Shown here piece after piece: positions 1 to 51,658 of a DNA stretch of 55,080 bases. Location: positions 1 through 55,080 of the forward strand of contig NW_001865086.1 in the NCBI RefSeq assembly GCF_000002865.3. The letters run 5' to 3'. This DNA is from Monosiga brevicollis MX1 (lineage: Eukaryota). The notes below the pieces were generated by a model. The model ran no database searches, was not told where the DNA came from, and saw nothing but the letters and a program-made list of their open reading frames with translations. The translations under genes and the position numbers were made by a program. The stretch's first letter is position 1, and each line of letters begins with the position of its first letter.

Positions 1-73
1 CTGTTCTCCCTTGCCGTACACGGGTACGCCACCTCATGCTTGTTTTTGTTGTTCGGGCCCACCCCTGTTGCAG

Positions 74-529
74 TCGGCCAACTTTTTGGACATCAAGGGC
101 TTGTTGGATTCAGCTTGTCAGCAGGTGGCCATGCGCATTCGCGGCAAAAAATCCGAAGAGGTGCTGCGCCTCTTTGGAGTCCAAGACCAACCCACCGACG
201 AAGAACTGAAGCAAATCTTTTTGGAATACCCCTTTCTCATGGAAGGCTGCGAAAGCATTCCCGGTACGTGGTCTCGTCTTATTCAGCCCGCCCACCTTGA
301 GTCGAGTGTTCCCTTCCCACGTGTTTCTCTTGATCTTTTTTGCCCCGCGCCCGTCTGTATCATTTTGTTTCATGCTGCCCGCCTGATGGAAAGACAACAC
401 GCGCCCCCTCATCTTCCTTCCAACTGTAATGCGCATGGGTTTCCAAAAACAGAACACAAGCGTATCAAAGAAAAAATCCTGGAGGAGCGACGCGATGAGG
501 ATCCCCCATCGGCCGGTGATGCCATCTAG
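74..529 (+). CDS. SKP1-like protein, last two exons (74-263, 453-529); 5' part outside the window
   Basis: SANFLDIKGLLDSACQQVAMRIRGKKSEEVLRLF resembles the SKP1 dimerisation-domain consensus (AANYLDIKGLLD..CK.VA.MIKGK); CAG acceptor at 71-73, GT donor at 264, AG acceptor at 451-452 keep the frame to TAG at 527-529. Confidence 0.8.
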   Translation, partial: SANFLDIKGLLDSACQQVAMRIRGKKSEEVLRLFGVQDQPTDEELKQIFLEYPFLMEGCESIPGTWSRLIQPAHLESSVPFPRVSLDLFCPAPVCIILFHAARLMERQHAPPHLPSNCNAHGFPKTEHKRIKEKILEERRDEDPPSAGDAI

Positions 530-2446: not shown

Positions 2447-3061
2447 TGTCGTTGATGGTATAATAAAATAAACTCCTCGGATCTAAACCATGGCTTTATT
2501 TCCCAGGATGGTATTTTATCTTCAAGTGCGTTCTTCGCATTTTTTCTTTGCCTCTGTGGCTTTTTGCCCTTTCCCTTTGACTTCTTCTGCTTCTTGCCCT
2601 TTTTGGCAGCGGTCTCGGTATCGATATTGGCATCGGCGGGCTGGCTTGACCTGTGTCTTGCTTTGTGTGCGCGTGGTGGCTGATCGCTTGTGCTGGATAC
2701 GGGACTCTCCTGGTCGGGGCCTTGGGGCGACGCCAGAACGTTTTGATTGATGCTGCCGTTTTTTTGCTTTCAGTGAGGCTTCTGATCTCGCCGACGTGCG
2801 CTTGGGCAAACAAGTAAACCTGTCCTCGCAACTGACCACCGAGAACTGTTGGCCAAAGGTGGGTCGTTTGTTGTAACAGGCAGAGAAGAGCAAGACCCCG
2901 CTGACCCGACTGCCGTTTTGGAAACGGCGCGCGCACGTCGAGTCCGAATTCTGGGTTGTCAGACGAGTTGTACTTGGAGGGGGCTCATGAGATTGGTGGT
3001 GGATAGAGAAGCAAGCAAAGCGGTTTGAAGCGGATGGTGAATAGAGAGAGATACCGTTGCC

Positions 3062-6000
3062 ATGAGTGCTGATGGAAAGCAGCTGTACAGGGCGTGTCGT
3101 TCATCAGATCCACAAGAGGCGCTGCGGCTGTTGACCAGTTGGGACCAACAACGCATTCGAGATGCTGTCCAATACAGATTGGTACGTATGCTGTTTGGTA
3201 TGATATTGTGTGATGTCAGTTACACTTTGAATATGTCACTGAATGGGGTGACGTTATGGTATAACATGGGACATATACTGCATGTTTGCATCATCCCACA
3301 GGATGGCTATACACCACTGCACAATGCCTGCGGTAACGGTCATGTCAAGGTGGTGGAGATGCTGTTGAAGCACGGTGCTGATGCTAAAGCCAAGGCCAAC
3401 GTCAGTACAGTACCTCCCTCTTCCCCTTTACCCCCCTATGATGGTGCACCTGTACCACATGATGATGATGCTGTACCTGTACGTCATGCTGATGCATCAT
3501 CCCACAGGATGGCTATACACCACTGCACCGGGCCTGTCGTAAGGGTCATGTTAAGGTGGTGGAGATGCTGTTGCAGCAGGTGCTGATACTAAAGCCAAGA
3601 CCAACGTCAGTACAGTACCTCCCTCTTCCCCCCTTTACCCCCTATGATGGTGCACCTGGACCACATGATGATGATGCTGTACCTGTACGTCACGCTGATG
3701 CATCATCCCACAGGGTGACTGGACACCACTGCACCAGGCCTGCCTTCACGGTCATGACAAGGTGGTGGAGATGCTGTTGCAGTACGGTGCTGATACTAAA
3801 GCCAAGACCAACGTCAGTACAGTACCTCCCTCTTCCCCCCTTTACCCCCTATGATGGTGCACCTGGACCACATGATGATGATGCTGTACCTGTACGTCAC
3901 GCTGATGCATCATCCCACAGGGTGACTGGACACCACTGCACCGGGCCTGTCGTAAGGGTCATGTTAAGGTGGTGGAGATGCTGTTGCAGCACGGTGCTGA
4001 TACTAAAGCCAAGACCAACGTCAGTACAGTACCTCCCTCTTCCCCCCTTTACCCCCTATGATGGTGCACCTGGACCACATGATGATGATGATGGTGATGC
4101 TGTACCTGTACGTCATGCTGATGCATCATCCCACAGAATGGCGTTACACCACTGCACGATGCCTGCTATACGGGTCATGACAAGGTGGTGGAGATGCTGT
4201 TGCAGCACGGTGCTGATACTGAAGCCAAGATCAGCGTCAGTACAGTACCTCCCTCTTCCCCCCTTTACCCTCCTGGCTGCTGCTCCCCGCTGCTCGTCGC
4301 CTTTGTCCCCCGTCCCTCGCTCCTCTACACCCTGCCCACCCGTGCGCGTCCGTTCTCCCTCCCCCTTGCTCCCTTTCTTCTTTTCCCGCTATTCCTTTCC
4401 TGCGCTTGTTTCGCGTCTGCGCTTTGTCGGTGCTCCCCGCGCCCCGCCCCGTTCCCTGCTGGTCTCTTGCCTTTGCCGTCCTTGCTCTTCCCCTTTTTCT
4501 GATGTTGTGACTTTAGTCCGTCCATCCCTGGCCATCGCGCCTCTGCCTCCCCTCGCACGCTCCAGCGGCTTTCGGTGGCCGTATCTTCTGTTTTGTCCCC
4601 GACACGGGTGACGTTGCTGTTTTTTCTTTTTTTCTTTTTTTTTGTTGTTTTTCTCCAAACGCGCCTCCTTTCGGACCCCTGCTACCTGCCCGCACCATTT
4701 GTACAATGCCCTCGCATCTGGCGGCTCTGACACACTCTGCAGCATTTTTACCTCGCCTTTTTTATGAGAAAGCAAATGCACACCGCCCAACTCAACCCTC
4801 GCGTCGCTGCCCACCTCACACGCTCCAATCACATGTTCTCAGGATGGCAGAACGCCCCTCGATGTCGGACGTCAAGAAGGACACGGCGACAAGCTGGAGC
4901 CCGTGTTTGCTGCTCACGAGGCTCGCCTGGCGCAACCACCCGCCCCCTTCGCTACGCTCACGCCTGCACCGCCTTCCGCCTGGCTGCCGCCTCTGCCCAC
5001 CACCCCCACCCTCGAGGTGAGCCTGCTCCCCTATCTTGTTCTCCCAATGCAATCCCCACGGCCTTATCCACCTGATCACGATCATTGGCACCACACAACC
5101 CCCCATTAGACCACGGCCTCTGTTGTGGTGGCGGTGGACACTTGCCTCAGGCCACTCCTGCCGGAGCACACCACCAGCCATCCCCTCCCCCACCTCGATG
5201 CCTTTATCAACGGTGCCGCCAAACAAAACCCCAATCTTGCAACGGCGGTTGCGGATATCCAGAGAACCATCAATGAAGCACCACCAGAGTTTCCCGCCAT
5301 GGACTGGGCTGCCTTTCAGGCGACTACCACCCAGGCTCTCAACGCACTCGACCAGGCGCTGGCAGCGCCCGAAGCGTTGAACAACCGCTTGGGTCAATTG
5401 GACCCCAGTACTGACGACCTAGAAACAGTACTCCAAGAGCTGCACGATGTCACAACTGGCTTCGAGCTGCAGCCTGCTCTTCTTGAGCTTCAGACTGCGT
5501 TGGCAGCATGCCCCGTTCCACCCACCGCGCCAGTAGTCGCGCCCAAAACGCCACCCACCGACCTGGCAGCGGCCCTGAGCAAAGTCATCATTATGAGCGC
5601 CGTGGAACCCAAGCGTCAAGAGCTGCTCACCAGCGCCAACAGCAACCTCAAGCGCCTAGTGCTGGCCTTGATCGATGCCCTGGGCGTCGTGGCAAAAGCG
5701 GGAACCACCGACACAATTCATCGCGTAGAGACGCTACGGCAATGCGCGCAATGCGTGGATGCAAGTGCACCACCTCAACCGGAGGCATTGCCCGAGGCCT
5801 GGAAGGCGCTGTGCCAAGCTCACGAGAAGCTGAGCCTACTCGAGCAAAATGGTCTCGAGCAAATTGCTCAGTGGCAACCACCTCCAGACTACGAACATCA
5901 GGATTGGTACTTGGCGTTTGTGCACCACGAGTCGCAAGCTTTGGCGCAGCAGTTGCAAGACATGATCGACTGGCAGGCCACGACGCTCTCCGTGTTGGCC

Positions 6001-8265
6001 TCGTGCATGAGTCATGTGGACAGTTTGACTCAAGACGTTGATGATGAATCGGTTGCTGCCCGCGACGAACTAACCAAGGTGGAGACTGAGATTCAAGGAT
6101 TCCACACGGCTCTACAACATCTGCCTGAAGCTGTTCGGTCTGGTCTCGAGCAGGAACTCAAAAAGCTAGAAGAGCGACGCAACACCTTGCGACAACAATT
6201 ATCAGATCAGCCACACGTGGACCACGTTGCAGAGCTCGCCCAGCTGCTGCACCAACACTTCCCAGGACTGCTGGTCTTTCTGCACCCTGAACAGAGCACG
6301 CTGGGAGCGCGCCTCCGCACTGTGCTTGGACCCGACCTTCCAGCCAGTCTGATCTTGGAGGCCATGACCGAAGTAGACCGAACGTTGTCGCTCTCCAGCC
6401 TGGGTCAGCTGTCGCTCCAATACAGCCAGAATCACAAGGTGTATAAAGCCCGCGCAACGCTGCCGAATCTTCCTGAGCAAGATTTGGCTGTCAAAGAGTA
6501 TGCACTCGCTGAGCAGCATAAGCAGGATCAGTGTCGTACGTTTCTCCGCGAACTCCGCGCGATGCGCCAGCTTGAGCACCCACACATCATTCCGGTCCTC
6601 GGCGCGCTCGTGGACGTACACAGTGGCCACCCGAGCGCATACCTGGTACAGCCATGGTGTGCACAGGGTGATTTGCAGCAGTGGCTCAGCAAGGCGCGCC
6701 ACCTGGCCACCTCGACCGTGATTTCGAGTCTGATGACTCAGCTGCGCACGGCCCTGGCGTTTATGCATAGCAAGGGCCTGGTGCATCGGGATGTCAAGCT
6801 GAGCAACGTCATGCTGGACGGTGCAGAGGACCAGCCCGTCGTGCGGCTGGGCGACTTTGACATTGCCAAGGCCGCGGCCGAAGCCACCATGCTACCATGC
6901 ACAGCCACCGCGTCGTCAGGCACGACTGGCTATGTGGCACCGGAGCTGCTATTTGGCATGGGTCGTGTGGGTGCACGACCGGCACAGGATGCCTTTTCCT
7001 TTGGCTGCGTGCTGTACAACACATACATGTTCCCACAAACGGTGCCACCTGCTCACCCACGGGACGATGAGGTTGTGGACCAATGCAGCTGGAGCATACA
7101 AGCAGGAGAGTCTGACTGCGACTTTCCGCATTTGGCTGCTGAGGTGAGCAATACCGCGATGCCTCTTGACCTGCAACTGGGCACCGTGCCTCTTATGTGA
7201 TTGAAATTCACTTGTGCTGTCCTTTGCTGAAGATGTGCGATTCATCGAGTGATTTGTACAAGGAAACGCGGGCTTTGCTTGCAACAGATCCAAAGCAACG
7301 GCCAAGCCTTTTCAGCGCCAAGCAGATTTCGCAGCAGTTTGCCATCGCTCAAGTTGGGCCAGCCATTGATGTCTTGCGCGATGCGCCCGAGCTCATGTCA
7401 GAGGTGCGTTGCTTGTTAACTGTTTTGTTCTTCCGCGGATCGTCTGATTTGAATCTACTGGGTGGGTAGGTGGGTGAGCTACTGAAGCAGCTGAACACCG
7501 GTGGACAGGGACCAGTGAATATTGCAGTGCAACGAGTGGAGCGCGTGCACAACCCCGTGCTGTGGGAGCGCTACAGCGCCAAGCGACGAGAGATGTTGCA
7601 TCGTATCAAAAATCAAGTGCACTATGATCAGCTCCAAACGGCCACATCAGATGCACCCTCGGGCTCTCTAGCTCTGCTTCGCGATGCATCCTGTCAAGAG
7701 CGCCTGTTGCTCCACGGCATCGCCCCTGACACAATGTTGCGCGACAAGATTGTGCGCCTGGGCCTTGACCAGCGTTTTGCTGGCAACAGTGCCGGCCACC
7801 GCTTTGGTCTCGGTGTTTACTTGGCGGACAATCCCGGCAAGGTATGGCAGCGCTGGCTGTCAATCTCATCTGTCTACCCAAGTGCTGTGGTGCTGACGCA
7901 ATGTGCTTACATGATTTCAGAGTCATCAGTATGCCAGTGCCGGACCCAACGGCGAACGAATGCTTGTCATCACGCGAGCCCTGCTGGGTCATGCCTTTGT
8001 CCACCCATCACCTCCTTCTGGGGCGCTGGCGCCACCGCTCCTGCCCGATGCGCCCAACAACGAGCGGTGCGTTGGGCAAAATCGACCATCTGTTGCATGT
8101 TGTCTCTGTCCGCCTCCTGATCTGACTGTTATGTTGCGCCGGCCATTTTACTTTTGCAGGTATGACTCGGTTGTCGCGACACCCTCTGGGCAGTTCCATG
8201 AGGTGATTGTGTTTGAGAATGCCCAAATCTATCCCGAGCTGGTTGTATACTACACGGCCAATTAG
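3062..8265 (+). CDS. Ankyrin-helical-kinase-PARP protein, copy 1. Exons 3062-3181, 3302-3400, 3508-3605 (98 bp, frameshifted), 3714-3812, 3921-4019, 4137-4235, 4843-5016, 5110-7143, 7233-7403, 7470-7841, 7921-8066, 8160-8265
   Basis: TPLH..C..GH..VVEMLL..GAD ankyrin exons; kinase motifs [37 protein letters not shown] motifs [33 protein letters not shown]; junctions GT-AG and phase-compatible except for the 98-bp exon. Confidence 0.88.
3302..4270 (+). repeat. Tandem array of five ankyrin exon+intron units (~205-215 bp period)
   Basis: Repeated intron gtcagtacagtacctccctcttcccc...gatgatgatg...gatgcatcatcccacag between 99-bp exons. Confidence 0.95.
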
Positions 8266-8718
8266 GATGAACTGGACTAGGTGCTAGTTTGTTGTGAGCG
8301 GCAAATTTGTTGTTCAGTTGCTTTTGCACACAATCAGCGTAATCTACCATGGGTTTTCCCACAGGAACCCCTATGAGCCGGTGTGACTTCATTTCCTGAC
8401 TAAAATACGCACCTCCACGGACTGGGTTGCCCCCCCTCCCCCCGTATTTTAGGGGTCATGCGTCGACCCCGCGAGCTTTGTGTACGTGTAATGTCTTGGC
8501 AGACGCCTTGTCTGATAAGCCCGTGTTCATTGTTGTTCGTTGTTATCTGTTTGCTGTGACATGCACTTTCCTTGAGCGTCTCTACAGCCATTTCGATGGT
8601 GCACCTGTTCTGGTCTGGTCACTGTGAATGCTTTGCCGACCGAAGCTGGTTCAATTGACCTCACGACACCACCAGTTTCTTGTTTCGTCCCGACGGACGT
8701 CGTTCAAACCGCTTTCAG

Positions 8719-9237
8719 AATGCCTCGTCAACACGACCCGCTTCCTTGCAAACCCAACACTGGCCTTTGACATGCTGTGGAGCCTGACAGCTGGCTGTCT
8801 CTGAATGAACGGCATACCTTTCCATACATGGATCAGGAAAACAGCATGCTGTTTTTTCATGTATTTACTGCTGAGCAAGCCTCTGGAGCACAGGCTGAGC
8901 CGTTGGCTGGAGAAGCGGGGCAGGCTGGACACGCCCGACGACTATGTTGTGCATTTCGTTGACAAACGACCACGTACCTGTATCGGCCAACGGTTGAGGT
9001 ACGCCGCGACCTTTTTGGATGTCGCACTTCGTGATTAATCGACTCTCGGCCGAGACGACCAGCGCCCTTTGCAGCCTGATCCACACTCAAGCTCGGCACT
9101 TTGGAGACACGGCCGAGCAAATGACCATGTGCAAACCAAGATGCATCGCGTGGTCTCGCATCAATGGCATGCTTTGTTTGGACGAGATGGCAAAGTGCAG
9201 CATGGCCGAGTTGACAGCAACCCAAGCAGCATTGGAA
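8719..9237 (+). pseudogene. Decayed coding exon of unknown type upstream of the second PARP cassette
   Basis: Peptide-like reading (FLANPTLAFDMLWSL...LEHRLSRWLEKRG...RTCIGQRL...AETTSAL...ELTATQAALE) conserved in all three copies, with an in-frame TGA and a 1-nt frameshift in the T-run near 9012-9017; candidate donor at 9238. Confidence 0.45.
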
Positions 9238-9344
9238 GTTTGCTATATTCCATCAGTTGGAACCCGGTGACTGACCTATCGCCCGAGGCAAATCTTGTTG
9301 CCACGGTATTGTTGTTGTTGTTGACATGTGGTGTTTGTGTGCAG

Positions 9345-10467
9345 ATGTGCGAGGCGACGAGCGATTTGTACAAGGAAACACGAGCCTTGCTTGCAACAGA
9401 TCCGAAGCAGCGGCCAACTCTCTTCAGCACCGGGCAGAGTGTGCAGCGACCTGTTACGACCCAAGTTGTTGGGCCAGCCATTGACGTTTTACGCGACGCA
9501 CCCGAGCTCATCCCCGAGGTGCGTTGCTTGCCGTTATCGTCATAATAGTATGATTATTTTTATCTTGACAAGCCGACTGATGGAAGTTCATTGTGTATAT
9601 AGGTGGCTGAGCTGCTACAGCAGTTGAGCACGGACGGGCGAGGGCCAAGCAACGTTGTTGTGAAGCGGGTGGAGCGCGTGCACAACCCCGTGCTGTGGGA
9701 ACGCTACAGTGCTAAGCGACGCGAGATGCTGGATCGCATCACAAGGAAGGAGCACCTTTGTCCTCTTGTAACCTTCACAACGGACGCGCTCTCGGGCTGT
9801 CCAGCTTTGCTTCGGGATACACCCTGTCAAGAGCGCCTGCTGCTCCACGGCATCGCCCCCGACACCGAGCGATCGCTGCGCGACAAGATTGTGCGCCTGG
9901 GCCTCGACTATCGCTTCGCCGGTAGCAGCAGCGGCCATCTGTATGGTCTTGGTGTTTACTTGGCTGACCATCCCGGCAAGGTGCGGCGGCGCTGTCTTGC
10001 AGGTTTAATTTGATCGTATTTGCTATCGCTGCTCACAGGCGCGGTGTCGGCATGGCTGTAGAGTCATCAATATGCAAAGCCTGGACCCAACGGTGAACGC
10101 ATGGTCATCATCGCGCGAGCCCTGTTGGGCCGTGCCTTTGTCCATGAATCGCCTCGTTCTGGAGCGCTGGCCCCTCCGCCTCTACCCAACCGGCGTAGCA
10201 ACCATGAGCGGTGCGTTGGGCAGACTTTCCTTTTTTTTTTATTATTATTTTTTTTTCCCTTTATGCATGTGAGGCTTAGCCGAGTTGCCTTCTGGCCGCC
10301 TTCTGACCCAACCTGACTGTTACGTCTGCCTTTTCTACAGATATGACTCGGTTGTCGCGATGCCGCCTGGGCGCGGTTTTCACGAGGTGATCATCTTTGA
10401 GAATGACCAAATCTATCCCGAGTTGGTGGTGTGCTACACGAGCGATAGGATGGGGCGTGTTGTTTGA
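9345..10467 (+). CDS. Second kinase-tail + PARP exon cassette (module B), intact. Exons 9345-9518, 9603-9980, 10062-10210, 10341-10467
   Basis: Same four-exon structure as 7233-8265; [31 protein letters not shown]; open frame across all junctions. Confidence 0.8.
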
Positions 10468-29300: not shown

Positions 29301-30415
29301 GTCGCACGCGTGTGTGAGTGCCAGCGTAAAGCTGACGGACACTGCCGCCATATTTCGCGCTCCATAGCTCCTGCCCAGCTTTGAAGCATCGAGGAGGTGG
29401 CAAGACGTACCACGGCGCAGACGAGGATGTAAACGAGGAGGAGCATAAACATGTCGACGACACCGACTGAGGTGTTGAAAATGCGCAAGACGACGCGACG
29501 GATGCTGGCGGCATAATAGGCGTCCACCAAAAATAAGGGCCGCACCTAAGAGCGCCACATCGAGTGGTGTGCGCGTTTACCAGAAGATGAGGGGTTGCCG
29601 CGCGTGTAGCAAGATCGTGGGACACGGGAAAGGATGGGCAATCGAGATTGGGCCCCGGAGCACGGGTGGGCTTGTCGAGACGGTGAAAGGGGGCGTACCA
29701 TGCGAAAGGGACGAATGTGGTCGGTACTAAAGCTGGTAAAGATGTCAGTAAAGATGGCTACCAAGCCAACGAGGCGGAGTTGATTGCCGCGGTGGCTGAG
29801 CCAGCGGCGAAAGCCGCCCGAGGCTTGAGCACGGTGATAAGCGTCCCAGACAAAAAAGAGCATGAGGACGAGTTCAACGGCGATGGGGACGCCGTTGGGA
29901 ATGTCGGTAAAGACGGCCGGCTTTTCGATGAGGGCGAGGAGCAGGAGTAGCGTGGCGGCAATCAGCTCAAACCACTTGAACAGGTTGTACCGAGACATGT
30001 GGATGAGGGCAAAGGAGCGCTGGTGAGCAACGCTGACGGGATGGTGTTGGTATTTGAGATAGTATCGGCCTTCCAAGAGGAGGATGACGGCGTGGTCGCG
30101 GTAGGCGTCGGCGGCTGCCAAGGGATTGGTGCGTTCAAGTTGGGCAAGGCGTTGCTGCTCGAGATCCACGGCGTGGCGCTGATCGCCGAAAAACTCGCTG
30201 AGTGTGTCCATGCCAGGCAGCATACCCGAAGCTTGCCCATCGGCGCTGTCCGCGGGAGCGCCTAGGTTGGAACCATCCCCAGTTGGCGGAAGGAGCGGGG
30301 CCTGGTCCTGGTGTGGCTCTGCCACGCTCTCATCAGCAGCTAGCGGCAGAGCTTCGGCCAAATGGGCGCCATCCTCATCCGTTTCAGACGTGGCCAGCAG
30401 TCCCTCGGTTGACAT
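26392..30415 (-). CDS. Two-pore channel (TPC), multi-exon
   Basis: Two 6-TM halves; pore motifs SLFVAITTANYPDV and TLFALMIVNNWQFIM; S4-like YRALRLFRLFRLRK; YFRSTWNCFDF; ATG at 30413-30415. Confidence 0.9.
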
Positions 30416-31289
30416 GATGCCCGTGCAGTTTGAGCGCACACGTGAGACGTTGAAACGTTGGGTGCGGGGTCTCCTAAGCTGAAGAGCGCAGAGCGGGATG
30501 AGGAAAAGGAGAAGAAAAAGAAGAAGGGGGGCCGGGGCTATCAATCAGTCCAAGGTCATTCCCCGATCAACATACCCATGGGCATCAGCGGCAACCACAT
30601 CAGCAGCAGCAGCAGCGGTAGCAGTAGCAGTAGCAGTAGCAGCGGTAGCGGTAGCAGTAGCAGTAGCAGCCAGGTGAAGCGACAGGGCTATAGAATGTGC
30701 GTCCGCAGCTCTGCCACTGAAAAAAAGGGATCAACCCCCCGTGAGCCAACGAACGCAGCAAGCAAGCACGCTTCTCCGCCCCCCACACACACACGCACAC
30801 ACACACATGTATAAACGGAAGGCTGAGGCGGTTCATCAAGCCATGAAGCCAGTGGTACGTACCAACCAACGGCTGCGCGCGCACACGGCCCCGTCGAGAC
30901 GATGAAGAGGACGACGACGTGAGCTGCCGTAAAATACGAGAGAGCGAGAGAGAGAGAGATGTGGTGTGCGTTCTCATGCAGAGACACTATCAATCTGACA
31001 GTTTTGGCCAACGGAAAGTATAACGTATATCCAGAGATGGGGTGGTGGCGTGGACGTTTGGCCAGAGAGGTGTGCGTGGTTGTTGTTTTTTCTGTTGATG
31101 ATTTGCTGGGCCAACTCACCGTCTTTTTGTCAGACAAAATGAGACGAAGGGAAGAGGGAGAGGGAGAGGGTAAAAGTGAGATATGTTTAGAGATATGAAC
31201 AGGCAGGGGATGTGAGTACACGGGAAAACAAAGGCAAGAACAGGGAGAGAGAGGCGAAAAAGGATGTATCCAGAGAGACAAACATTTCA

Positions 31290-31437
31290 CCAATTCAACC
31301 CTCTCTCTTCTCTCTCTCTCTCTCTCTCTCCCTCTAGATCACCAGCAAATCTCTCCCTCTCTCTAAATCTCTCTCTCTCTCTAAATCTCTCTCTCTCTCT
31401 CTCTCTCTCACCTCTCTCGATCCCGAGCATAATATCT

Positions 31438-31485
<48 letters not shown>

Positions 31486-32047: not shown

Positions 32048-32089
<42 letters not shown>

Positions 32090-33003: not shown

Positions 33004-34700
33004 TCACACTGCCTCGAGTTTGGCATCATTCGATCGTGTATAGGACACCACCAGCTCGGAATAGATGTGTGAATGGTCGTAGATGGCCACCTGGTGAAAT
33101 TCGCCACACGGTGTCGCGATCACCGAGTCATGTTTGTAGAAAAGGTCACAGGCAATCGTCGTGTCAGGTCCAAAGTCGACCAGAGGTACTCGCGGCTCAG
33201 AACCAACATGCAACGTGTCTGTCCGGCGCACCGCTCATTGTCTGGTGCGCCTGGCAAGAGCAGTGGGGCCAGTGCTCCACAAGGTGGTGCTTCATGGACC
33301 TAGGCATGACCCAACAGAACTTGCGTGACAGTGAGCATGCGCTTGCCGTCGAGTCAACCGTTGGTGTACCGATGACTCTCTAAAGTCATACACAAAAGCG
33401 CATCTGGCATCAGACCAGCAGCCCATTTCGATCAAACCAGTCGCAGTTTCTAACCCCACCTTGCCAAAAATGATCGAACAAGTAAACACCGAAATCAAAA
33501 CCGGTGGCTCGCGCAGCGACCAGCAAAGCGATGGTCGAGACCCAAGCGCACAATCTTATCGCGCAGCGATTGCTCGGGCGTGAAGCAGCCAGCGCTCTTG
33601 ACAGGGTGTATCACGAAGCAAAGCTGGACTGCCCAAGAACGCGTCCGAGGTGGTGGTGACAAGTCGATTATAGTGCCCTAACTTGTGAGGCGGTGCAGGA
33701 TCTCCCGTCGCTTGGTGTTGTGGCGCTCCCACCGCACGGGGTTCTGCACACGCGCCACCCGCTGCCCTGCAGCGTTACCTGGTCCTAGCCCGTCAGCAAT
33801 CAGCTGCTGCAGTAGTTCAGCCACCTAGTCACACAATAAATTCAAACCACACGGCTTGTCAAGATCAAAAGAACAGTATTATTATGACGATATCAGCAGG
33901 CAACGCACCTCTGACACGAGCTCGGGCGTGTCGCACAAAACGTCAATGGCTGGCCCAACAACGTGGGCGTTGCACACTCTGCCCGGCGCTGAAGAGAGTT
34001 GGGCGCTGCTTGAGATTTGTTGCAAGCAGGCCCATGTTTCCTTGTACAAACCGCTCGTCGCGTCGCACATCTGCACACAAACACCACATGTCAACAACAA
34101 CAACAACAATGAGATTCGCCTCGGGCGAGAGGTCAGTCACTGGGTTCCAACTGTTGGAATTTCGCAAACTCCCAATGCTTCTCGGGCTGCTGTCAACTCG
34201 GCCATACTGCGCTTTGCCATCTCGTCCAAACAAAGCATGCCATTGATGCGAGTCCACTCGATGCATCAGTCGAGGTGACATCTTGGTTTGCACATGGTCA
34301 TTTGCTCGGCCGTGTCTCCAGAATGCCAAACTTGAGTGTGGATTAGGCTGCCAAGAGCGCTGGTCGTCTCGGCCAAGAGTCGATGAATTACAACCGCCGT
34401 CATCCAAAAGGTCGCGGCGTACCCCAAGCGTTGGCCGATACAGGTACGTGGTCGTTTTTCGACGAAATGCAGCATAGTCGTCGGACGTGGCCAGCCTGCC
34501 CCGCTTCTCCAGCCAGCTGCTCAGCCTGTGCTCCAGAGGCTTGCCCAGCAGCAAAAACATGAAGATTAGCATACTGATCTCCCGATCCATGTATGGAAAG
34601 GTATGCCGTTCATTCAGGGACAGCCAGCTGTCAGGCTCCACAGCATGTGAAAGGCCAGTTTTGGGTTTGAAGGAAGCGGGTCGTGTTGAGGAGGCGTTTT
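33004..34700 (-). pseudogene. Decayed module B (kinase tail + PARP, 34070-33004) with upstream decayed exon, copy 2
   Basis: Homologous to 8719-10467; deletion/frameshift at the HG motif; catalytic Glu position reads Q (EFHQVAIY). Confidence 0.85.
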
Positions 34701-35114: not shown

Positions 35115-38100
35115 CTAATTGGCCGTGTAGTATACAACCAGCTCGGGATACATTTGGGCATTCTTAAACACCACCACCTCGTGGAATTCCCCAGAGGGTG
35201 TCGCGACGACCGAGTCATACCTAAAGAGAATTCAATGGCAAATGCAACAAGTCAGATCAGGTGGTGGACAGAGGTACCCTGCTGAAGACAACATGCAATA
35301 GGCAGGCGATTTTGTCCGACGCACCGCTCGTTGTTGGGCGCAGCGGGCAGGAGCGGTGGCGCCAGCGCCCCAGAAGGAGGTGATGGATGGACAAAGGCAT
35401 GACCCAGCAGGGCTCGCGTGATGACGAGCATCCGTTCGCCGTTGGGTCCAGTATTGGTGTACCGGTGACTCTGAGATCATGTAAGCACATTGCGTCAGCA
35501 CCACAGCACTTGGGTAAACAGGCGAGATTGATAGCCAGCGCAGTGCTGCCCTACCTTGCCGGGATGGTCCGCCAAGTAAACACCGAGACCGAATCGGTGG
35601 CCGACGTTGTTACCCGCAAAGCGATAGTCAAGGCCCAGGCGCACAATCTTGTCGCGCAACATTGTGTCAGGGGCGATGCCGTGGAGCAACAGACGCTCTT
35701 GACAGGATGCATCGCGAAGCAGAGCTGGAGAGCCCGAGGGTGCATCTAATGTGGCCGTTTGGAGCTGATCATAGTGCACTTGACTTTTGATACGATGCAA
35801 CATCTCTCGTCGCTTGGCGCTGTAGCGCTCCCACAGCACGGGGTTGTGCACGCGCTCCACTCGTTGCACTGTGATATTCGCTGGTCCCCGCCCATCGGTG
35901 TTCAGCTGCTGCAGTAGCTCACCCACCTACCCACCCAGTAGGTTCAAATCAGACGATTCGTGGAAGAGAGAAAAAAAATCACAAGCAACGCACCTCTGAA
36001 ATGAGCTCGGGCGCATCGCGCAAGACATCAATGGCTGGCCCAACAACTTGGGTCGTGACAGGTCGTTCTGCGATTTGGCCGGCGCTGAAAAGGCTTGGCC
36101 GTTGCTTTGGATCTGCTGCCAGCAAGGCTCGCGTTTTCTTGTACAAATCGCTCGACGAATCGCACATCTGCATCAGAGACGCCAAAGTGAGTTCCAGTCA
36201 CTGAAAGGCGCAGTTGGTTCTTCGTTGTGGGTCAATAGGTATCGCACTATCGCTCACCTCAGCCGCCAAGTGCGGAAAACCGAAATTTGCATTTCCTGCT
36301 CCTGCATCCCATGTGCATTTGTCAACAAGCTGATCCGTGGGTAAACGAGCAGGCGGCACCGTTTGTGGATACATGTAGGTGTTGTAGACTACACAGCCAA
36401 AGGAAAAGGCATCCTGTGCCGGTCGTGCACCCACACGACCCATTCCAAATAGCACCTCCGGTGCCACATAGCCCGCCGTGCCCGACGATGCGGTGGCCGT
36501 GCATGGTAGCATGGTGGCTTCAGCGGCGGCCTTGGCAATGTCAAAATCGCCCAGCCGCACTACAGGCTGGTCCTCTGCACCGTCCAACATGATGTTGCTC
36601 AGCTTGACATCCCGATGCACCAGGCCCTTGCTGTGCATAAACGCCAGGGCCGAGCGCAGCTGCGTCATGAGTCCTGCTATCACGGTTGAGGTGGCCAGGT
36701 GGCGCGCCTTGCCGAGCCACTGCTGCAGATCCCCCTGTGTACACCACGGCTGCACCAAGTAGGCGCTGGGGTGGCCACTGTGTACGTCCACGAGCGCGCC
36801 AAGGACCGGGATGATGTGTGGGTGCTCGAGCTGGCGCATGGCGCGCAGTTCGCGCAGGAATGTACGGCACTGGTCCTGCTTGTGTTGCCGAGCAAAAGCA
36901 TACTCCTTGACGGCCAAATCTTGCTCAGGAAGATTCGGCAGCGCTGCACGAGCTTTGTACACCTTGTGGTTTTGGTTGTAATGGAGCTCAAGCTGACCCA
37001 GGCTGGAGAGCGACAATGTGCGATCCACTTCGGTCATGGCCTCCAAGATGAGGCTGGCTGGAAGGTCGGGTCCAAGCACTGTGCGGAGCCGCGCTCCCAG
37101 CGCGCTCTGTTCAGGGTGCAAAAAGATCAAGAGGGCTGGGAAGTGTTGGTGTAGCAGCTCTGCCAGTGCCGCCACCTGGTCCACCTGTGTTTGATCCGAT
37201 AGTTGTTGCTGCAAAGTGACCAGACGCTCCTTCATAGTTTGCAATCGAGCCTCGAGTTCAGCCTGCATCTCATCTGAAGCCAAAGGCAAGAATGCCGTGG
37301 TTGTCTGGATGTTCTTCTGCAGCTCGGCCACTTCTTCGTGGATGGATACGACTTGATCTGCGCTGCTCTGCGTGATGCCGCTTGCATACTCTTCGCACGA
37401 AGTCAGCACGGACAGCGTCGTGGCTTGCCAGTCGATCATGTCTTGCAACTGCTGCATCAGAGCTTGCGACTCGTGAAGCGCAAACGCCAGATACCAGTCT
37501 TGATGCTCATAGTCGTGCTCGACTCTCCAGGTTATCAGCTGCTCCAGGCCGTTCTGCTCGGGCAAGCTCAGCTTTTCGTGGGCTTGGCACAGCTCCTCCC
37601 AGGCCTCGGGCAATGCCTCGGCTGGAGGCGGTGCACTCACATCCAAGCCTTCCACACACTGCTCTAGTGTGTTCATGCGATGGTCCGTGTCAGTGATTCC
37701 CACTCTTGCCACAGCACGCAAGGCAGTAATCAGCGCCTTCGCCAGCTGCTGGAGGTTGCTGTTGGCGCTGGTGAGCAGCTCTTGACGCTTGGCTCCCACG
37801 TCGTGTAGCATGGCGACTTTGTCCAGGGCTGCACCGAGGTTGGCAGGCAGCGTTTCGGGTGCCATGGTCAGCGCGGTGGGTGGAGCGGGGCACGCTGCCA
37901 GCACGGTCTGAAGCTCGAGAAGCACCGGATGCAGCTCAAAACCAGCAGTGACACCGTGCAGCTCTTGCAGCACTGATTCTAGGTTGTCAGTGTTGGGGTC
38001 CAATTGCTTCAAGCGGTTGTTCAACGCTTCAGGCGCTGCCAGTGCCTGGTCGAGCGCGCCGAGAGCCTGGGTGGTGGTCGCCCGAAAGGCAGGCCAGTCC

Positions 38101-38291
38101 ATCGCCGGAAACTCTGGTGGCGCTTCATCGATGCTCCTCTGGATATCCGCAACTGCCGTTGCAAGATTGGGGGTTTGTTTGGCGGCACCGCTGATAAAGG
38201 CATCGAGGTGGGGGAGAGTATGGGTGGTGGTGCGCTCCGGCAGGAGGGGCCTGAGCCAGGTATCCACCGCCACCACAACAGAGGCCGTGGT
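35115..38291 (-). CDS. Helical-kinase-PARP protein, copy 2; ankyrin exons not seen (gap at 38311-38360)
   Basis: Kinase exon 38291-36258 open; the four downstream exons intact with LLHG, GVYLAD, FHEVVVF; TAG at 35115-35117. Confidence 0.85.
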
Positions 38292-38392
38292 CTAATGGAG
38301 GGTTGTGTGGNNNNNNNNNNNNNNNNNNNNNNNNNNNNNNNNNNNNNNNNNNNNNNNNNNTGTCTTGATACAAGACAGTGTCTGCCACATAC

Positions 38393-44220: not shown

Positions 44221-45315
44221 TCACACGGCCTCGAGTTTGGCATCATTCGATCGTGTATAGGACACCACCAGCTCGGGATAGATGTGTGTATGGTCGTAGA
44301 TGGCCACCTTGCGAAATTCGCCACACGGTGTAGCGATCACCGAGTCATGTCTGTAGAAAAGGTCACAGGCAATCGTCGTGTCAGGTCCAAAGTCGACCAG
44401 AGGTACTCGCGGCTCAGAACCAACATGCAACGTGTCTGTCCGGCGCACCGCTCATTGTCTGGTGCGCCTGGCAAGAGCAGTGGGGCCAGTGCTCCACAAG
44501 GTGGTGCTTCATGGACCTAGGCATGACCCAACAAAACTCGCGTGACAATAAGCATGCGCTCGCCATCGAGTCCACCATTGGTGTCCTGATGACTCTCTAA
44601 AGTCATACACAAAAGCGCATCTGGTATCAGAGAACAGCAGCGCATTTCGATCAAATCAGTCGCAGTTTCAAACCCCACCTTGCCAAAAATGATCGAACAA
44701 GTAAACGCCAAGAACATAACTTGTGAAAGCCCGCGCGGCTACCAGCAAAGGGATGGTCGCGGCCCAAGCGCACAATCTTATCGCGCAGCGATTGCTCGGA
44801 CATGAAGCAGCCGGCGCCTTGACAGGGTGTATCACGAAGCAAAGCTGGACAGCCCGAGAGCACATCCGAGGTGGTGGTGACAAGTCGATTATAGTGCTCC
44901 TATCTTGTGAGGCGGTGCAGCATCTCCCGTCGCTTGCTGCTGTACCGTTCCCACAGCACGGGGGTTTTGCACACGTGCCACCCGCTGCCCTGCAGCGTTA
45001 CCTGGTCCTAGCCCGTCAGCACTCAGCTGCTGCTGCGGTTCAGCCACCTAGTCACACAATAAATTCAAATCAGTCGGCTTGTCAAGATAAAAAGAACAAT
45101 CTTAGTATGACGATGTCAGCAAGCAACGCACCTCTGACACGAGCTCGCACACGTCGCACAAAACGTCAATGGCTGGCCCAGCAACTTGGGCGCTGCACAC
45201 TCTGCCCGGTGCTGAAGAGAGTTGGGCGCTGCTTGAAATCTCTTGCAAGCAGGCCCTTGTTTCCTTGTACAAACCGCTCGTCGCCTCGCACACCTGCACA
45301 CAAACACCACATGTC

Positions 45316-46384: not shown

Positions 46385-49300
46385 CTAATTGGCCGTGTAG
46401 TATACAACCAGCTCCGGATACATTTGGGCATTCTCAAACACAATCACCTCGTGGAATTGCCCAGAGGGTGTCGCGACAACAGAGTCATACCTGAAGAAAA
46501 TTCAATGGCAGATGCAACAAGTCAGATCAGGTGGTGGACAGAGGTACTTTGCTGAGGGCAACATGCAACAGATGGTCGATTTTGCCCAACGCACCGCTCG
46601 TTGTTGGGCGCACTGGGCAGGAGCGGTGGCGCCAGCGCCCCAGAAGGAGGTGATGGATGGACATGGGCATGGCCCAGGAGTGCTCGCGAGATGACGAGCA
46701 TTCGTTCGCCGTTGGGACCGGCACCGGCGTACTGATGACTCTGAAACCATGTAAGCACATTGCGTCAGCACCACAGCACTTGGGTAAACAGGCGAGATTG
46801 ACGGCCAGCGTTGCCATACCTTGCCGGGATGGTCGGCCAAGTAAACACCAAGACCGAATCGGTGACCAGCGCTGCTGCCAGCAAAACGCTGGTCAAGGCC
46901 CAGGCGCACAATCTTGTCGCGCAGAGATCTGTCTGGGGCGATGCCGTGGAGCAACAGGCGCTCTTGACAGGATGCATCGCGAAGCAGAGCTGGAGAGCCC
47001 GAGGGTGCATCTGATGTGGCCGTTTGGAGCTGATCATAGTGCACTTGACTTTTGATACGATGCAACATCTCTCGTCGCTTGGCGCTGTAGCGCTCCCACA
47101 GCACGGGGTTGTGCACGCGCTCCACTCGTTGCACTGCGATATTCGCTGGTCCCCGCCCACCGGTGTTCAGCTGCTTCAGTAGCTCACCCACCTACCCACC
47201 CAGTAGATTCAAATCAGACGACTTGCGGAAGAACCAAAAAGTTAACAAGCAACGCACCTCTGAAATGAGCTCGGGCGCATCGCGCAAGACATCAATGGCT
47301 GGCCCGACTTGGGCGGCCACAGGTCGTTCTGCAATCTGCCCGGCGCTGAAAAGGCTTGGCCGTTGCTTCGGATCTGTTGCAAGCAAAGCCCGCGTTTCCT
47401 TGTACAAATCACTCGACGAATCGCACATCTGCATCAGAGAAACCAACGTGAGTTTCTATCACATTAGAGGCGCGGTGCCCAGTTGTCGTTTCAGAGAATC
47501 ACAATACGCTTACCTCAGTCGCCAAGTGCGTAAAACCGAAATTTGCATTCTCTGCTCCTGCATCCCATGTGCATTTGTCAACAAGCTGATCTGTGGGTAA
47601 ACGAGCAGGCGGCACCGTTTGTGGATACATGTACGTGTTGTAGACTACACAGCCAAAAGAAAAGGCATCCTGTGCCGGTCGTGCACCCACACGACCCATT
47701 CCAAATAGCACCTCTGGTGCCACATAGCCCGCCGTGCCCGACGATGCAGTGGCCGTGCATGGTAGCATAGTGGCTTCGGCTGCGGCCTTGGTAATGTCAA
47801 AATCGCCCAGCCGCACAACAGGTTGGTCCTCGTCACCGTCCAGCATCACATTGCTCAGCTTGACATCCCGATGCACCAAGCCCTTGCTATGCATAAACGC
47901 CAGGGCCGTGCGCAGCTGAGTCATCAGACTCGCAATCACGGTCGAGGTGGCCAGGTGCCGTGCCTTGCTGAGCCACTGCTGCAAGTCACCCTGTGTACAC
48001 CACGGCTGCACCAAGTAGGCGCTGGGGTGGCCACTGTGCACGTCCACGAGCGCGCCAAGGACCGGAATGATGTGTGGGTGCTCAAGCTGGCGCATGGCGC
48101 GAAGCTCGCGCAGGAATGTACGGCACTGGTCCTGCTTGTGTTGCCGGGCAAAAGCGTACTCCTTCACAGCCAAATCTTGTTCCTCAGATTCTGGTAGCGC
48201 GGCGCGGGCCTTGTAGACCTTGTGATTTTGGTTGTAATGAAGATCAAGCTGGCCCAGGCTGGAGAGCGTCAAACCCTGGTCTACTTCGGTCATGGCCTCC
48301 AAGATCAGGCTGGCTGGAAGGTCGGGCCCAAGCACAATGCGGAGGCGCGCTCCCAGGGTGCTCTGTTCAGGGTGCAGAAAGACCAGCAGCGCTGGAAAGT
48401 GCTGATGCAGCAGCTGGGCGAGTTCTGCGACGTGGTCCACGTGTGGCTGATCTGATAATTGTTGTCGCAAGGTATCCAGCCGTTCCTTCTTCTCTTGGAG
48501 CTTGTGTTCGAGGCTTGGACGCACGTCTTCAGGCAAATGTTGTAAAGCCGTGTGAAATCCTTGAATCTCGGCCTGTAGTTTTGTCAGTTCCTCGTGAGCA
48601 GCAACCGATTCATCATCGACGTCTTGGTTCAAGCTGTCCACGTGCTTCATGCACGAGGTCAACACGGAGAGCGTCGTGGCCTGCCAGTCGATCATGTCTT
48701 GTAACTGCTGCAGCAGAGCTTGCGACTCGTGGTGCACAAACGCCACGTACCAATCCTGATGCTCGTAGTCTGGAGGTGGTTGCCACTGAGCAATTTGCTC
48801 GAGACCATTTTGCTCGAGCAGGTTCAGCTTCTCGTGAGCTTGGCACAGCTCCTCCCAGGCCTCAGGCAATGTCTCGGCTGGCGGCGGTGCACTTGCATCC
48901 ACGCATTGCGCGCACTGCCGTAGCGTCTCCACGCGATGAATTGTGTCGGTGGTTCCCGCTCTTGCCACGGCGCCCAGGGCATCAATCAAGGCCAGCACGA
49001 GGCGCTTGAGGTTGCTGTTGGCGCTGGTGAGCAGCTCCTGACGCTTGGGTTCTACGCCGCTCAGAACGATGACTTTGCTCAGGGCCGCCGCCAGGTCGGT
49101 GGGTGGCGTTTTGGGCGCGATCACTGGCGTGGTGGGTGGAGCAGGGCATGCTGCCAGCACGGTCTGAAGCTCAAGAAAAGCTGGCTGCAGCTCAAAACCA
49201 GCAGTGACATCATGCAGCTCTTGGAGCACTGATTCTAGGCTGTCAGTGTTTGAGTCCAATTGACCCAAGCGGCTGTTCAACGCTTCGGGCGCTGCCAGTG

Positions 49301-51658
49301 CCTGGTCGAGCGCACCGAGGGCCTGGGTAATGGTCGCCTGAAAGGCAGCCCAGTCCATGGCAGGAAACTCTGGTGGGGCTTCATCAATGGTTTTGCGGAT
49401 TGAAGCAACTGCCTTTGCAAGATTGGGGTTTTGTTTGGCGGCACCGCTGATAAAGGCATCGAGGTGAGGGAGGGGATGGGTGGTGTGCGTGGGCAAGAGC
49501 GGCTTGAGCCACTTGTCCACTGCCACCACAACAGAGGCCGTAGTCTAATTAAGGGTTGTGTGGTGCCATTGGTCGTGATTAGGTTGGATGAGGCCGTGGG
49601 GATTGGGGCAATAAATGCATTGGGAAAACAAGATGGGGGAGCAGGCTCACCTCGAGGGTGGGGGTGGTGGGCAGAGGCGGCAGCCAGGAGGAGAGAGCTT
49701 TGTGAGCAGCAAGCACGGGCTCCAGCTTGTCGCCATGCCCGCGTTGACGTCCGACATCGAGGGGCGTTCTGCCATCCTGAGAACATGTGATTGGCGCGTG
49801 CGAGGTGGGCAGCGACGCGAGGGTTGAGTTGGGCGATGTGCATTTGCTTTCTCATAACAAAGGCGAGGTGACAATGCTTTGAAGTGGGCCGAAGACGCCA
49901 GACGCGCGAGTGGTGTGCAAATGGTGCGGGCAGGTAGCAGGGGTCCGAACGGAGGCGCGCTTGGAGAGAGGAAAAAAAAAAACAAAAAGGGCGCGTGTGC
50001 CGGGGGCAAAACTCAAGGCACGGCCACCGAAAGTCGCTTGAGCGAGCGAGAGAGGCAGAGGCGTGATGGCAAGGGGTTGGGGATGGATCAGAAAAAGGGG
50101 AGAGCGAAAACGGCAGGCGGAAGAGACAAGCGGGGCGCGGGGAGCACCGACAACGGGCGGACGCAAAACGGGGGAAGAAGAGGGATAGCGGGAAAGAAGA
50201 AAAGGAGCCAAGGGGGAAGAACGAACGCGCACGGGAGGGCAGGGTGTAGCGGAGAGGAGGGACGGGGGCAAAGCACATGCAGCGGGAGCAGGAGCAGCAG
50301 CCGATCAAGGGGGGTAAAGAGGGGGAAGAGGGAGGTACTGTACTGACGTCGTTCTTGGCTTTAGCATCAGCACCGTACTTCAACAGCATCTCCGCCACCT
50401 CGTCATGACCCTTAAGGCAGGCCATGTGCAGTGGTGTTTCGCCATTCTGTGGGATGATGCATCAGCATGACGTACAGGTACACATCCATCATCATCATCA
50501 TGTGGGGTACGGGTGCACCATCATAGGGGGGTAAGGGGAGAAGAGGGAGGTACTGTACTGACGTTGTTCTTGGCTTTAGCATCAGCACCGTGCTGCAACA
50601 GCATCTCCGCCACCGCGACATGACCCTTAAAGCAGGCCATGTGCAGTGGTGTTTCGCCACCCTGTGGGATGATGCATCAGCATGACGTACAGGTCATCAT
50701 CATCATCATCATGTTGGGTACGGGTGTACACCATCATAGGGGGGTAAGGGGAGAAGAGGGAGGTACTGTACTGACGTTGTTCTTGGCTTTAGCATCAGCA
50801 CCGTGCTGCAACAGCATCTCCGCCACCGCGACATGACCGCAAATGCAGGCATAGTGCAGTGGTGTATCGCCATACTGTGGGATGATGCATCAGCATGACG
50901 TACAGGTACAGCATCATCATCATCAGCATCATCGTGGGGTACGGGTGCACCATCATAGGGGGGTAAGGGGAGAAGAGGGAGGTACTGTACTGACGTTGTT
51001 CTTGGCTTTAGCATCAGCACCGTGCTGCAACAGCATCTCCGCCACCTTGACATGACCGTTGTGGCAGGCCATGTGCAGTGGTGTATTCGCCACCCTGTGA
51101 AATGATGCATCAGCATGACGTACAGGTACAGCATCATCATCATGTGGTACAGGTGCACCATCATAGGGGGGGTAAAGGGGGGAAGAGGGAGGTACTGTAC
51201 TGACGCTCTGAAAAAAGCCACCCTGTGGGATGGTGCATCATCATCATCATCATCATGGGGTACAGGTGCACCATCATAGGGGGATAAAGGGGGGAAGAGG
51301 GAGGTACTGTACTGACGTTGTCCTTGGCTTTAGTATCAGCACCGTGCTGCAACAGCATCTCCACCACCTTGTCATGACCGTTGTGGCAGGCCATGTGCAG
51401 TGGTGTATAGCCACCCTGTGGGATGATGCAAACATGCAGTATATGTCCCATGTTATACCATAACGTCACCCCATCAAGTGACACATTCAAAGTGTAACCA
51501 ATATCACACAACATCATACCAAACAGCATACGTACCGTATTTTTGTATTGGGCAGCATCTCGTATACGTTGTTGGTCCCAACTGGTCAACAGCTGCAGCG
51601 CCCATTGTGAATCTGGTGAACAACACGCACTGTACAGCTGCCATCCATCATCACTCAT
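46385..51658 (-). CDS. Ankyrin-helical-kinase-PARP protein, copy 3. Exons 51658-51536, 51415-51317, 51222-51205 (18 bp), 51094-50995 (100 bp, frameshifted), 50874-50776, 50661-50563, 50446-50348, 49776-49651, 49544-47514, then four exons from 47428 to the stop
   Basis: Same architecture and motifs as copy 1; H-Y-E intact (LLHG, GVYLAD, FHEVIVF); TAG at 46385-46387. Confidence 0.88.
50310..51420 (-). repeat. Tandem array of six ankyrin exon+intron units (one collapsed)
   Basis: Same repeated intron as 3302-4270, on the opposite strand. Confidence 0.95.

What the first reader, a model, noticed from the sequence alone, without database searches (positions are those of the whole stretch)
3062..8265. 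Multicopy ankyrin-helical-kinase-PARP gene family: candidate sensor-effector (immune-like) system
Seen: splicing gives a ~1,200-aa protein with an ankyrin array, a Pro-rich linker, a long helical/coiled-coil region, a protein kinase and a PARP catalytic domain. It occurs in three copies (3062-8265 +, 35115-38291 -, 46385-51658 -). Known: tankyrases are ANK-SAM-PARP with no kinase, and RNase L is ANK-pseudokinase-effector nuclease. I do not recognise ANK-kinase-PARP as a described architecture. Inference: ligand binding by variable ankyrins could drive oligomerisation through the helical/kinase part and activate ADP-ribosylation or NAD+ consumption as a defence output.
Basis: partly seen in the sequence, partly recalled or inferred. 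Interest (0 to 1): 0.92.

Follow-up and report, generated by a model that had tools for sequence, protein, structure and literature searches.

The report
Choanoflagellate ankyrin-kinase-PARP receptor-like gene family
A single-celled relative of animals, Monosiga brevicollis, carries more than two dozen gene copies that join a fast-changing ankyrin binding arm to a protein kinase and an ADP-ribose-adding (PARP) enzyme, and these likely work as detectors of foreign proteins inside the cell.

Summary
The architecture is real. The window is Monosiga brevicollis. Copies A and C splice to 1,172 and 1,156 aa proteins (ankyrins, Pro-rich linker, ~420-aa helical stalk, kinase, PARP), but only if one frameshifted ankyrin exon is skipped in each. 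Copy B shows no ankyrins because it starts at an assembly gap. RNA contigs show most joints separately at family level; none spans the gene. I found 29 gene models on 17 contigs and no relative of the stalk in another named species. Each ankyrin repeat is one 99-nt exon. Exons differ more than their introns (85% against 96% identity), mostly at six binding-face codons, while kinase and PARP are under purifying selection with catalytic residues kept. It is not a tankyrase or RNase L. The scan noted this family before on another piece of this genome, and a similar layout in Naegleria (not checked here).

The parts
3062..3181 (+). Copy A first coding exon: start codon and N-terminal ankyrin-like cap
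   Evidence: exon model; helical and confident in the model of paralog P0007
3302..3400 (+). Copy A ankyrin exon 1 (99 nt, one repeat, phase 0)
3508..3605 (+). Copy A ankyrin exon 2, 98 nt, out of frame (must be skipped, or assembly error)
3714..3812 (+). Copy A ankyrin exon 3 (99 nt)
3921..4019 (+). Copy A ankyrin exon 4 (99 nt)
4137..4235 (+). Copy A ankyrin exon 5 (99 nt)
   Evidence: joint 4235 to 4843 in run X4
4843..5016 (+). Copy A C-cap repeat and Pro-rich linker exon
   Evidence: joint to 5110 in X3 and X4
5110..7143 (+). Copy A large exon: helical stalk (about first 420 codons) and kinase through subdomain X; Lys 6493-6495, HRD Asp 6790-6792, DFD Asp 6853-6855
7233..7403 (+). Copy A kinase C-terminal helix (subdomain XI) and linker to PARP
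   Evidence: (Pkinase match of paralogs runs across this joint)
7470..7841 (+). Copy A PARP exon with catalytic His (7713-7715) and Tyr (7818-7820)
7921..8066 (+). Copy A PARP exon 2
8160..8265 (+). Copy A last exon with catalytic Glu (8200-8202) and stop
8266..9344 (+). Conserved non-coding spacer (about 82% to B and C, frameshifting indels), covered by RNA-run contigs, one GT..AG joint 8481-8676
9345..10467 (+). Second cassette of unit A: four exons (9345-9518, 9603-9980, 10062-10210, 10341-10467), kinase tail + PARP with H-Y-E, open frame, 74% identical to the first; begins with ATG
   Evidence: last intron spliced in X3 and X4
35115..38291 (-). Copy B: stalk, kinase, PARP (943 aa open); part of gene model MONBRDRAFT_34748
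38311..38360 (.). Assembly gap that probably hides copy B's ankyrin exons
33028..34070 (-). Second cassette of unit B, broken by stops and frameshifts
46385..51658 (-). Copy C: cap exon, four in-frame ankyrin exons, one 100-nt out-of-frame ankyrin exon (51094-50995), an 18-nt ankyrin remnant (51222-51205), linker, stalk/kinase, PARP
44245..45293 (-). Second cassette of unit C, broken by stops and frameshifts

Best explanation
These genes are members of a Monosiga brevicollis family that joins a diversifying ankyrin arm, a helical stalk, a kinase and a PARP in one reading frame, and they likely act as intracellular receptors that would bind a fast-changing foreign protein and answer with ADP-ribosylation. 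Shown: the architecture, one exon per repeat, excess amino-acid change on the binding face, conserved catalytic residues, many mosaic and broken copies, splicing of most joints. Inferred: unequal recombination between the 207-213 bp exon+intron units changes repeat number and keeps the introns alike, while selection keeps new binding-face residues; ligand binding would bring molecules together through the stalk, the kinase would switch on the PARP, and the PARP would modify the bound target or itself, or spend NAD+, to stop the invader or the cell. The orphan second cassette is most likely the remnant of a tandem copy that in unit A is still expressed as a sensor-less PARP.
For: Ankyrin exons: pN 0.173 against pS 0.054 over 8 in-frame exons (codon bootstrap, 0.03% of 10,000 replicates at or below zero); exons 85% identical, their introns 96%; the six codons that a published ankyrin library randomises as one exposed face (PMC3308923, passage) have pN 0.53 against 0.085 elsewhere, 25 of 1,107,568 six-codon sets reach this; the same positions are the most variable in 22 distinct repeats of database paralogs. 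Kinase dN/dS 0.12-0.16, PARP 0.25-0.41, stalk 0.22-0.36 among A, B, C. HRDVKLSN invariant in 21 of 21 aligned rows; PARP His in 19 of 20 and Glu in 18 of 19 models where the motif was found. 29 gene models, 17 contig lengths; region trees and sliding identity disagree, i.e. mosaic paralogs. No signal peptide or membrane segment by hydropathy. Best solved relatives of the PARP are PARP12/15/14, a clade with antiviral members (PMC4245714 section 3.1.5). The same evolutionary pattern marks Ectocarpus candidate receptors (PMC3341825 abstract).
Against: No ligand, activity, oligomer or induction data. No contig spans ankyrin to PARP, and many joints come from paralogs; the copy-A joint 7143-7233 and ankyrin-to-ankyrin joints were not listed. 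Both complete copies carry an out-of-frame ankyrin exon and may be pseudogenes if it is not skipped. pN also exceeds pS outside the six face codons (0.085 against 0.026), so homogenised or constrained silent sites may inflate the signal; exon pairs are not independent, and I chose the second position set after seeing that position 8 varies (the first, recalled set gave p 0.005). The kinase lacks a Gly-rich loop and has DFD for DFG, so it may be a nucleotide-binding scaffold. The M. brevicollis immunity paper does not mention PARP or ankyrin in its main text.
Confidence: 0.45

Rival explanations
1. Tankyrase-like writers: the ankyrins recruit substrates, with no activation gate. Each paralog would bind a different fast-evolving protein (viral, transposon or bacterial) and tag it by phosphorylation and ADP-ribosylation.
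For: Tankyrase ankyrins serve protein-protein interaction and partner binding (PMC4245714 and PMC9688111 passages); all selection results fit equally well; no STAND NTPase switch is present.
Against: Does not explain the 420-aa stalk or the strongly conserved kinase between arm and PARP; a sensor-less PARP cassette kept open in unit A has no role in it.
Confidence: 0.25
2. Conflict inside the species: allorecognition between cells, or a selfish toxin-antidote array in which the PARP is toxic and the variable arm reads a polymorphic self protein.
For: Species-restricted expansion, tandem units, decaying copies; fungal repeat receptors that control incompatibility evolve alike (PMC2873952, search listing and abstract start only).
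Against: No linked antidote or partner gene was identified in the units; the family is spread over 17 contigs.
Confidence: 0.15
3. Ordinary stress or signalling PARP that multiplied neutrally in an unstable region; gene conversion erases silent differences and mimics positive selection.
For: Segmental duplications, gaps and a transposon lie beside the copies; several cassettes are broken; pS in ankyrin exons is very low everywhere.
Against: Conversion is blind to codon position, yet 245 of 407 pairwise nucleotide differences fall in 6 of 33 codons on one protein face and 17 of 18 amino-acid-invariant codons show no silent change; paralogs as far as 60% identity keep all catalytic motifs.
Confidence: 0.1

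Closest known systems
Tankyrases (PARP5a/b, clade 4; ANK-SAM-PARP)
   Same: N-terminal ankyrins, C-terminal PARP with H-Y-E triad
   Different: 4-5 variable repeats instead of 15-18 conserved ones (PMC2964712); stalk and kinase instead of SAM; multicopy; tankyrase was not detected in M. brevicollis (PMC9688111)
RNase L (ANK-pseudokinase-KEN RNase; layout and mechanism recalled, no paper found)
   Same: ankyrin arm, kinase-like middle, enzymatic effector at the C terminus; a DFD motif in RNase L is recalled, not checked
   Different: effector is a PARP, a long stalk lies between arm and kinase, HRD/Lys/Glu are intact, the arm is hypervariable rather than tuned to one ligand, many copies
Ectocarpus ROCO-LRR and NB-ARC-TPR candidate pathogen receptors (PMC3341825; PMC11378527)
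   Same: one repeat per exon, exon shuffling, diversifying selection, gene birth and death (abstracts)
   Different: ankyrin rather than LRR/TPR; no GTPase or NB-ARC switch; carries its own kinase and PARP output
Clade 3 PARPs (PARP12, 14, 15, 10)
   Same: best solved matches of the catalytic domain (E 1e-9 to 5e-9)
   Different: keeps the catalytic Glu that most clade 3 members lost (PMC2964712); no macro, WWE or CCCH domains
Ankyrin PARPs noted in passing by Perina et al. 2014 (PMC4245714)
   Same: the paper states that ankyrin+PARP proteins occur in M. brevicollis and Naegleria gruberi, possibly this family
   Different: the passages read name no kinase, no expansion and no accession; its figure and trees were not visible to me

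Membership tests
Tankyrase | 15-18 or more ankyrin repeats | tested here: not met
   4 in-frame repeat exons plus caps in A and C; 0-7 motif hits per database model
Tankyrase | SAM domain before the PARP | tested here: not met
   no SAM among the Pfam families of 21 aligned members; a kinase occupies that place
Tankyrase | clade 4 catalytic domain | tested here: inconclusive
   whole domain of P0019 hits PARP12/15 at E 1e-9, tankyrase-2 at 7e-3; one exon alone ranked tankyrase-2 narrowly first; no tree with outside PARPs was built
PARP/ARTD enzymes | PF00644 domain with H-Y-E triad | tested here: met
   16 of 21 members hit PF00644; H, Y, E located in copy A
PARP/ARTD enzymes | ADP-ribosyl transfer, mono or poly | not testable with these tools
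   needs an assay
Clade 1A ankyrin PARPs | WGR and PARP regulatory domains | tested here: not met
   neither among Pfam hits
Clade 3 mono-ARTs | third triad residue aliphatic | tested here: not met
   Glu aligns with the Ile of PARP12; Glu in 18 of 19 models with the motif
RNase L | ankyrins followed by a kinase-like domain | tested here: met
RNase L | KEN ribonuclease effector | tested here: not met
   C terminus is PARP
RNase L | ligand-induced dimerisation | not tested
Active ePK kinase | VAIK Lys, alphaC Glu, HRD, Asn, DFG Asp, APE | tested here: met
   K692, FLRE, D791, D812, APE in copy A; invariant or near-invariant in the family
Active ePK kinase | Gly-rich loop and DFG glycine | tested here: not met
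   no GxGxxG before the Lys strand; DFD in 22 of 22 models with the motif
Exon-shuffled candidate receptors (Ectocarpus type) | one repeat per symmetric exon, variable number | tested here: met
   99-nt phase-0 exons in 207-213 bp tandem units, an 18-nt remnant
Exon-shuffled candidate receptors (Ectocarpus type) | diversifying selection on the binding face | tested here: met
   with the caveats given
Exon-shuffled candidate receptors (Ectocarpus type) | ROC-COR or NB-ARC switch | tested here: not met
   none among Pfam hits
Exon-shuffled candidate receptors (Ectocarpus type) | alternative splicing of repeat exons | tested here: inconclusive
   skipping is required for an open frame but no skipping joint was listed in short contigs

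The most novel reading that the evidence does not exclude
Choanoflagellates, in which LRR-type NLRs and RIG-I were not detected, have a natural DARPin-like repertoire: exon-cassette ankyrin receptors, reshuffled by recombination and exon skipping, wired through a kinase to a PARP, with downstream sensor-less PARP cassettes as helpers or conversion donors. With the similar Naegleria and marine-protist genes noted elsewhere in the scan, this would be an undescribed protist class of ADP-ribosylating immune receptors.
Probability: 0.3. Interest if true: 0.9.

Novelty: new variant of a known kind. Interest (0 to 1): 0.72.

Why it matters
How the closest relatives of animals detect intruders inside the cell is open: a survey of choanoflagellate transcriptomes found cGAS and STING but not LRR-type NLRs or RIG-I (PMC6040629, passage). 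This family offers a concrete, diversified candidate in a species that has a known pathogen, RNA-seq and CRISPR tools (PMC8592570), so it can be tested now. It also links ADP-ribosylation to a variable receptor, which I did not find in the papers searched, and its hypervariable positions match those that protein engineers randomise in ankyrin libraries.

Tried and rejected
No whole genome was held, so the copy count rests on database gene models, many of them mis-spliced; it is not a genome census. The DEAD helicase in P0001 and AGTRAP in P0004 look like fusions of neighbouring genes by the annotation (P0001 runs through spacer-derived sequence first), so I did not count them as alternative effectors. 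The spacer holds no remnant of the stalk/kinase exon (best tblastn E 0.03) and has frameshifting indels. No joint from the kinase exon to the second cassette (7143 to 9345) was listed, but 10 joints were hidden, so alternative 3' splicing is neither shown nor excluded. Full-length fold: ankyrins confident, kinase and PARP under pLDDT 50, not used. Stalk fold (mean pLDDT 63): no Foldseek match at E 0.001; best Z 9.7-9.4, incl. spectrin-repeat bundles, within the range of generic helical matches. Codon-model runs did not print omega and are not used. Metagenome scan: 79 loci, all generic kinases at 29-41% identity, 0 of 79 with a PARP or ankyrin match. ESM Atlas: generic kinase clusters and PARP clusters at 0.80, no kinase+PARP cluster among rows shown. 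No run is on record as RNA; X3-X6 are taken as RNA because they show GT..AG joints, and they come from one study. Paper searches with no paper on the architecture: 0 papers; papers listed, none on it by title and abstract start or by passages read. Expression tables of PMC8592570 (supp2.zip) were too large to read and may show whether the family is induced; two papers were not held.
Full report
Source. All 5 hits of the stalk region among longer proteins are Monosiga brevicollis MX1 gene models; copy B matches MONBRDRAFT_34748 at 99.5% over 885 residues. No model found matched copy A or C exactly; the collection shows cluster representatives only, so this does not show that they are unannotated.

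Gene models. Splice motifs and exon phases were mapped. Copy A has a cap exon, five ankyrin exons, a linker exon, a 2,034-nt stalk/kinase exon and four exons for the kinase tail and PARP; every intron is GT..AG. The frame is open for 1,172 aa if the 98-nt ankyrin exon is skipped and stops at codon 353 if not; copy C gives 1,156 aa with its 100-nt exon skipped. Because all ankyrin exons are phase 0, skipping costs only one repeat. Copy B is open for 943 aa and starts under a 50-N gap; the sequence above the gap matches sequence 4.4 kb above copy C's large exon, so B's ankyrins are probably unsequenced, not absent. Synonymous divergence of 0.33-0.64 in stalk and kinase makes A, B and C paralogs, not alleles.

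Transcripts. Of 24 listed runs I laid 6, all as assembled contigs. X1 and X2 show no splice joints and behave as DNA; X3-X6 (one study) show GT..AG joints: 4235-4843 (X4), 5016-5110 (X3, X4), 7403-7470 and 8066-8160 (all four), 7841-7921 as loose ends that read into the next exon. The kinase-to-PARP link is seen in paralog contigs that join the kinase exon to the 7233 exon (4 joint rows, each in 1-4 runs). The kinase domain itself crosses this intron (Pkinase match of paralogs). No contig spans the gene, the copy-A form of that joint and ankyrin-to-ankyrin joints were not listed, and the tables were cut. So the fusion is supported joint by joint at family level.

Family. One search gave 78 hits: 19 M. 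brevicollis models at 58-91% identity and 59 unrelated kinases matching 14-36% of the query. With this makes 29 models on 17 contigs of distinct length; 8 of the first 24 carry ankyrin, kinase and PARP labels together, the rest are partial or mis-spliced models. The stalk alone hit 8 of 1.84 billion representatives: 7 M. brevicollis and one unnamed 66-aa fragment. The PARP part hit 19 of 1,322 candidates, all M. brevicollis; that search needs shared 5-residue words and would miss distant kinase-PARP proteins. Earlier scan notes report ankyrin-helical-kinase-PARP genes in Naegleria and a marine protist; I could not test them, so the layout may be wider than this sequence family.

Evolution. The eight in-frame ankyrin exons have pN 0.173 and pS 0.054, are 85% identical while their introns are 96% identical, and vary mainly at exon codons 1, 3, 8, 11, 12, 32 and 33. 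A published ankyrin library randomises repeat positions 2, 3, 5, 10, 13, 14 as one exposed face (PMC3308923, passage); these map to exon codons 33, 1, 3, 8, 11, 12, with pN 0.53 against 0.085 (exact p 2e-5). Caveats: pairs are not independent, recombination is likely, the two frameshifted exons were left out, pN exceeds pS also off the face, and this position set was chosen after the first look (first set p 0.005). Kinase, PARP and stalk are under purifying selection. A coiled-coil hairpin in the stalk is 25% identical between A and B but 70% between A and C, with pN below pS; trees of hairpin, kinase and PARP place B and P0002 differently: old variants shuffled among paralogs.

Enzymes. The kinase keeps Lys, alphaC Glu, HRDxKxxN, the DFG Asp and APE, lacks a Gly-rich loop and has DFD in 22 of 22 models with the motif. 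The PARP keeps H-Y-E and is closest to PARP12/15/14 among solved structures; mono or poly activity cannot be told. The stalk is predicted all-helical with a long hairpin and has no specific fold match. Hydropathy shows no signal or membrane segment.

Second cassette. About 1.08 kb behind each stop lies another copy of the last four exons. In A it is open, keeps H-Y-E, is 74% identical to the first (dN/dS 0.24) and would be in frame either spliced to the kinase exon (1,183 aa) or from its own ATG. In B and C it is broken. From the spacer's indel rate about 5 frameshifts would be expected in A's cassette if unconstrained (rough P 0.005 for none), so it is probably kept, or recently refreshed. 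RNA-run contigs run unspliced from the spacer into its first exon in all four runs, and its last intron is spliced with no mismatch in X3 and X4. This fits a read-through or stand-alone sensor-less PARP better than an alternative 3' end. In X1 and X2 the stretch 9866-9948 differs from the assembly, 8-10 of 13 letters and a 6-nt gap agreeing with first-type cassettes: a weak hint of gene conversion, or another locus.

Mechanism. Most likely a cytoplasmic receptor whose variable arm binds a fast-evolving foreign protein, with stalk and kinase coupling this to PARP activity (0.45). A tankyrase-like substrate-recruiting writer (0.25), conflict within the species (0.15) and neutral expansion (0.1) are the rivals. 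Everything after 'the arm is diversifying and the enzymes are conserved' is inference.

Literature. Perina 2014 (passages, sections 3.1.5 and 3.1.6, one short supplement) notes ankyrin+PARP in M. brevicollis and Naegleria without a kinase. Citarelli 2010 (passages) lists no such family. The tankyrase survey (passages) found no tankyrase in M. brevicollis. Woznica 2021 (passages, one supplement) has no PARP or ankyrin mention; its large data file was unreadable. Zambounis 2012 (abstract, one section) and Teng 2024 (abstract) give the closest evolutionary parallel. Richter 2018 (passages) did not detect LRR-type NLRs in choanoflagellates. Ten searches of the open library found no description of ankyrin-kinase-PARP; subscription papers were not searched. 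RNase L details are recalled.

Verdict. Real, expressed at family level, undescribed as far as I could search; a new variant of repeat-sensor plus enzyme-effector proteins, function untested. Interest 0.72.

Noticed in passing
window 11331-13381: DNA transposon with terminal inverted repeats (56 nt perfect plus 33 nt at 94%) around a 516-codon frame with a DDE_3 transposase match, right behind unit A.
   Followed up: partly
window 30381-39324 and 41257-54946: Units B and C lie in a tandem segmental duplication of roughly 12 kb with microsatellite blocks and five N gaps.
   Followed up: partly
window 9866-9948: DNA-like runs X1 and X2 carry a patch resembling first-type PARP cassettes where the assembly has the second type; possible gene conversion or a further locus.
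   Followed up: partly
window 2595-3061: About 470 bp upstream of the start codon is 85% conserved between A and C; loose ends of RNA contigs at 3005 suggest a 5' UTR intron from about 2859 to 3006.
   Followed up: partly
window 8266-9344: The non-coding spacer is 85-94% identical between units over most of its length, more than silent sites of the large exon, and has a spliced intron in X4.
   Followed up: partly
window 27523-29757 (-): Ion-transport (voltage-gated channel type) gene, Pfam Ion_trans E 6e-28.
   Followed up: no
window 19502-22888 (+): Weak FYVE and PI3/PI4-kinase matches in neighbouring frames.
   Followed up: no
window 2-526 (+) and 39261-40217 (-): Skp1 dimerisation domain match; weak right-handed beta-helix match that gene model MONBRDRAFT_34748 fuses across gaps to copy B.
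   Followed up: no
P0085, P0021, P0023, P0024: Database models with stalk+PARP but no kinase, ankyrin+kinase+PARP without stalk, or ankyrin+stalk only; may be real deletion variants or annotation errors.
   Followed up: no
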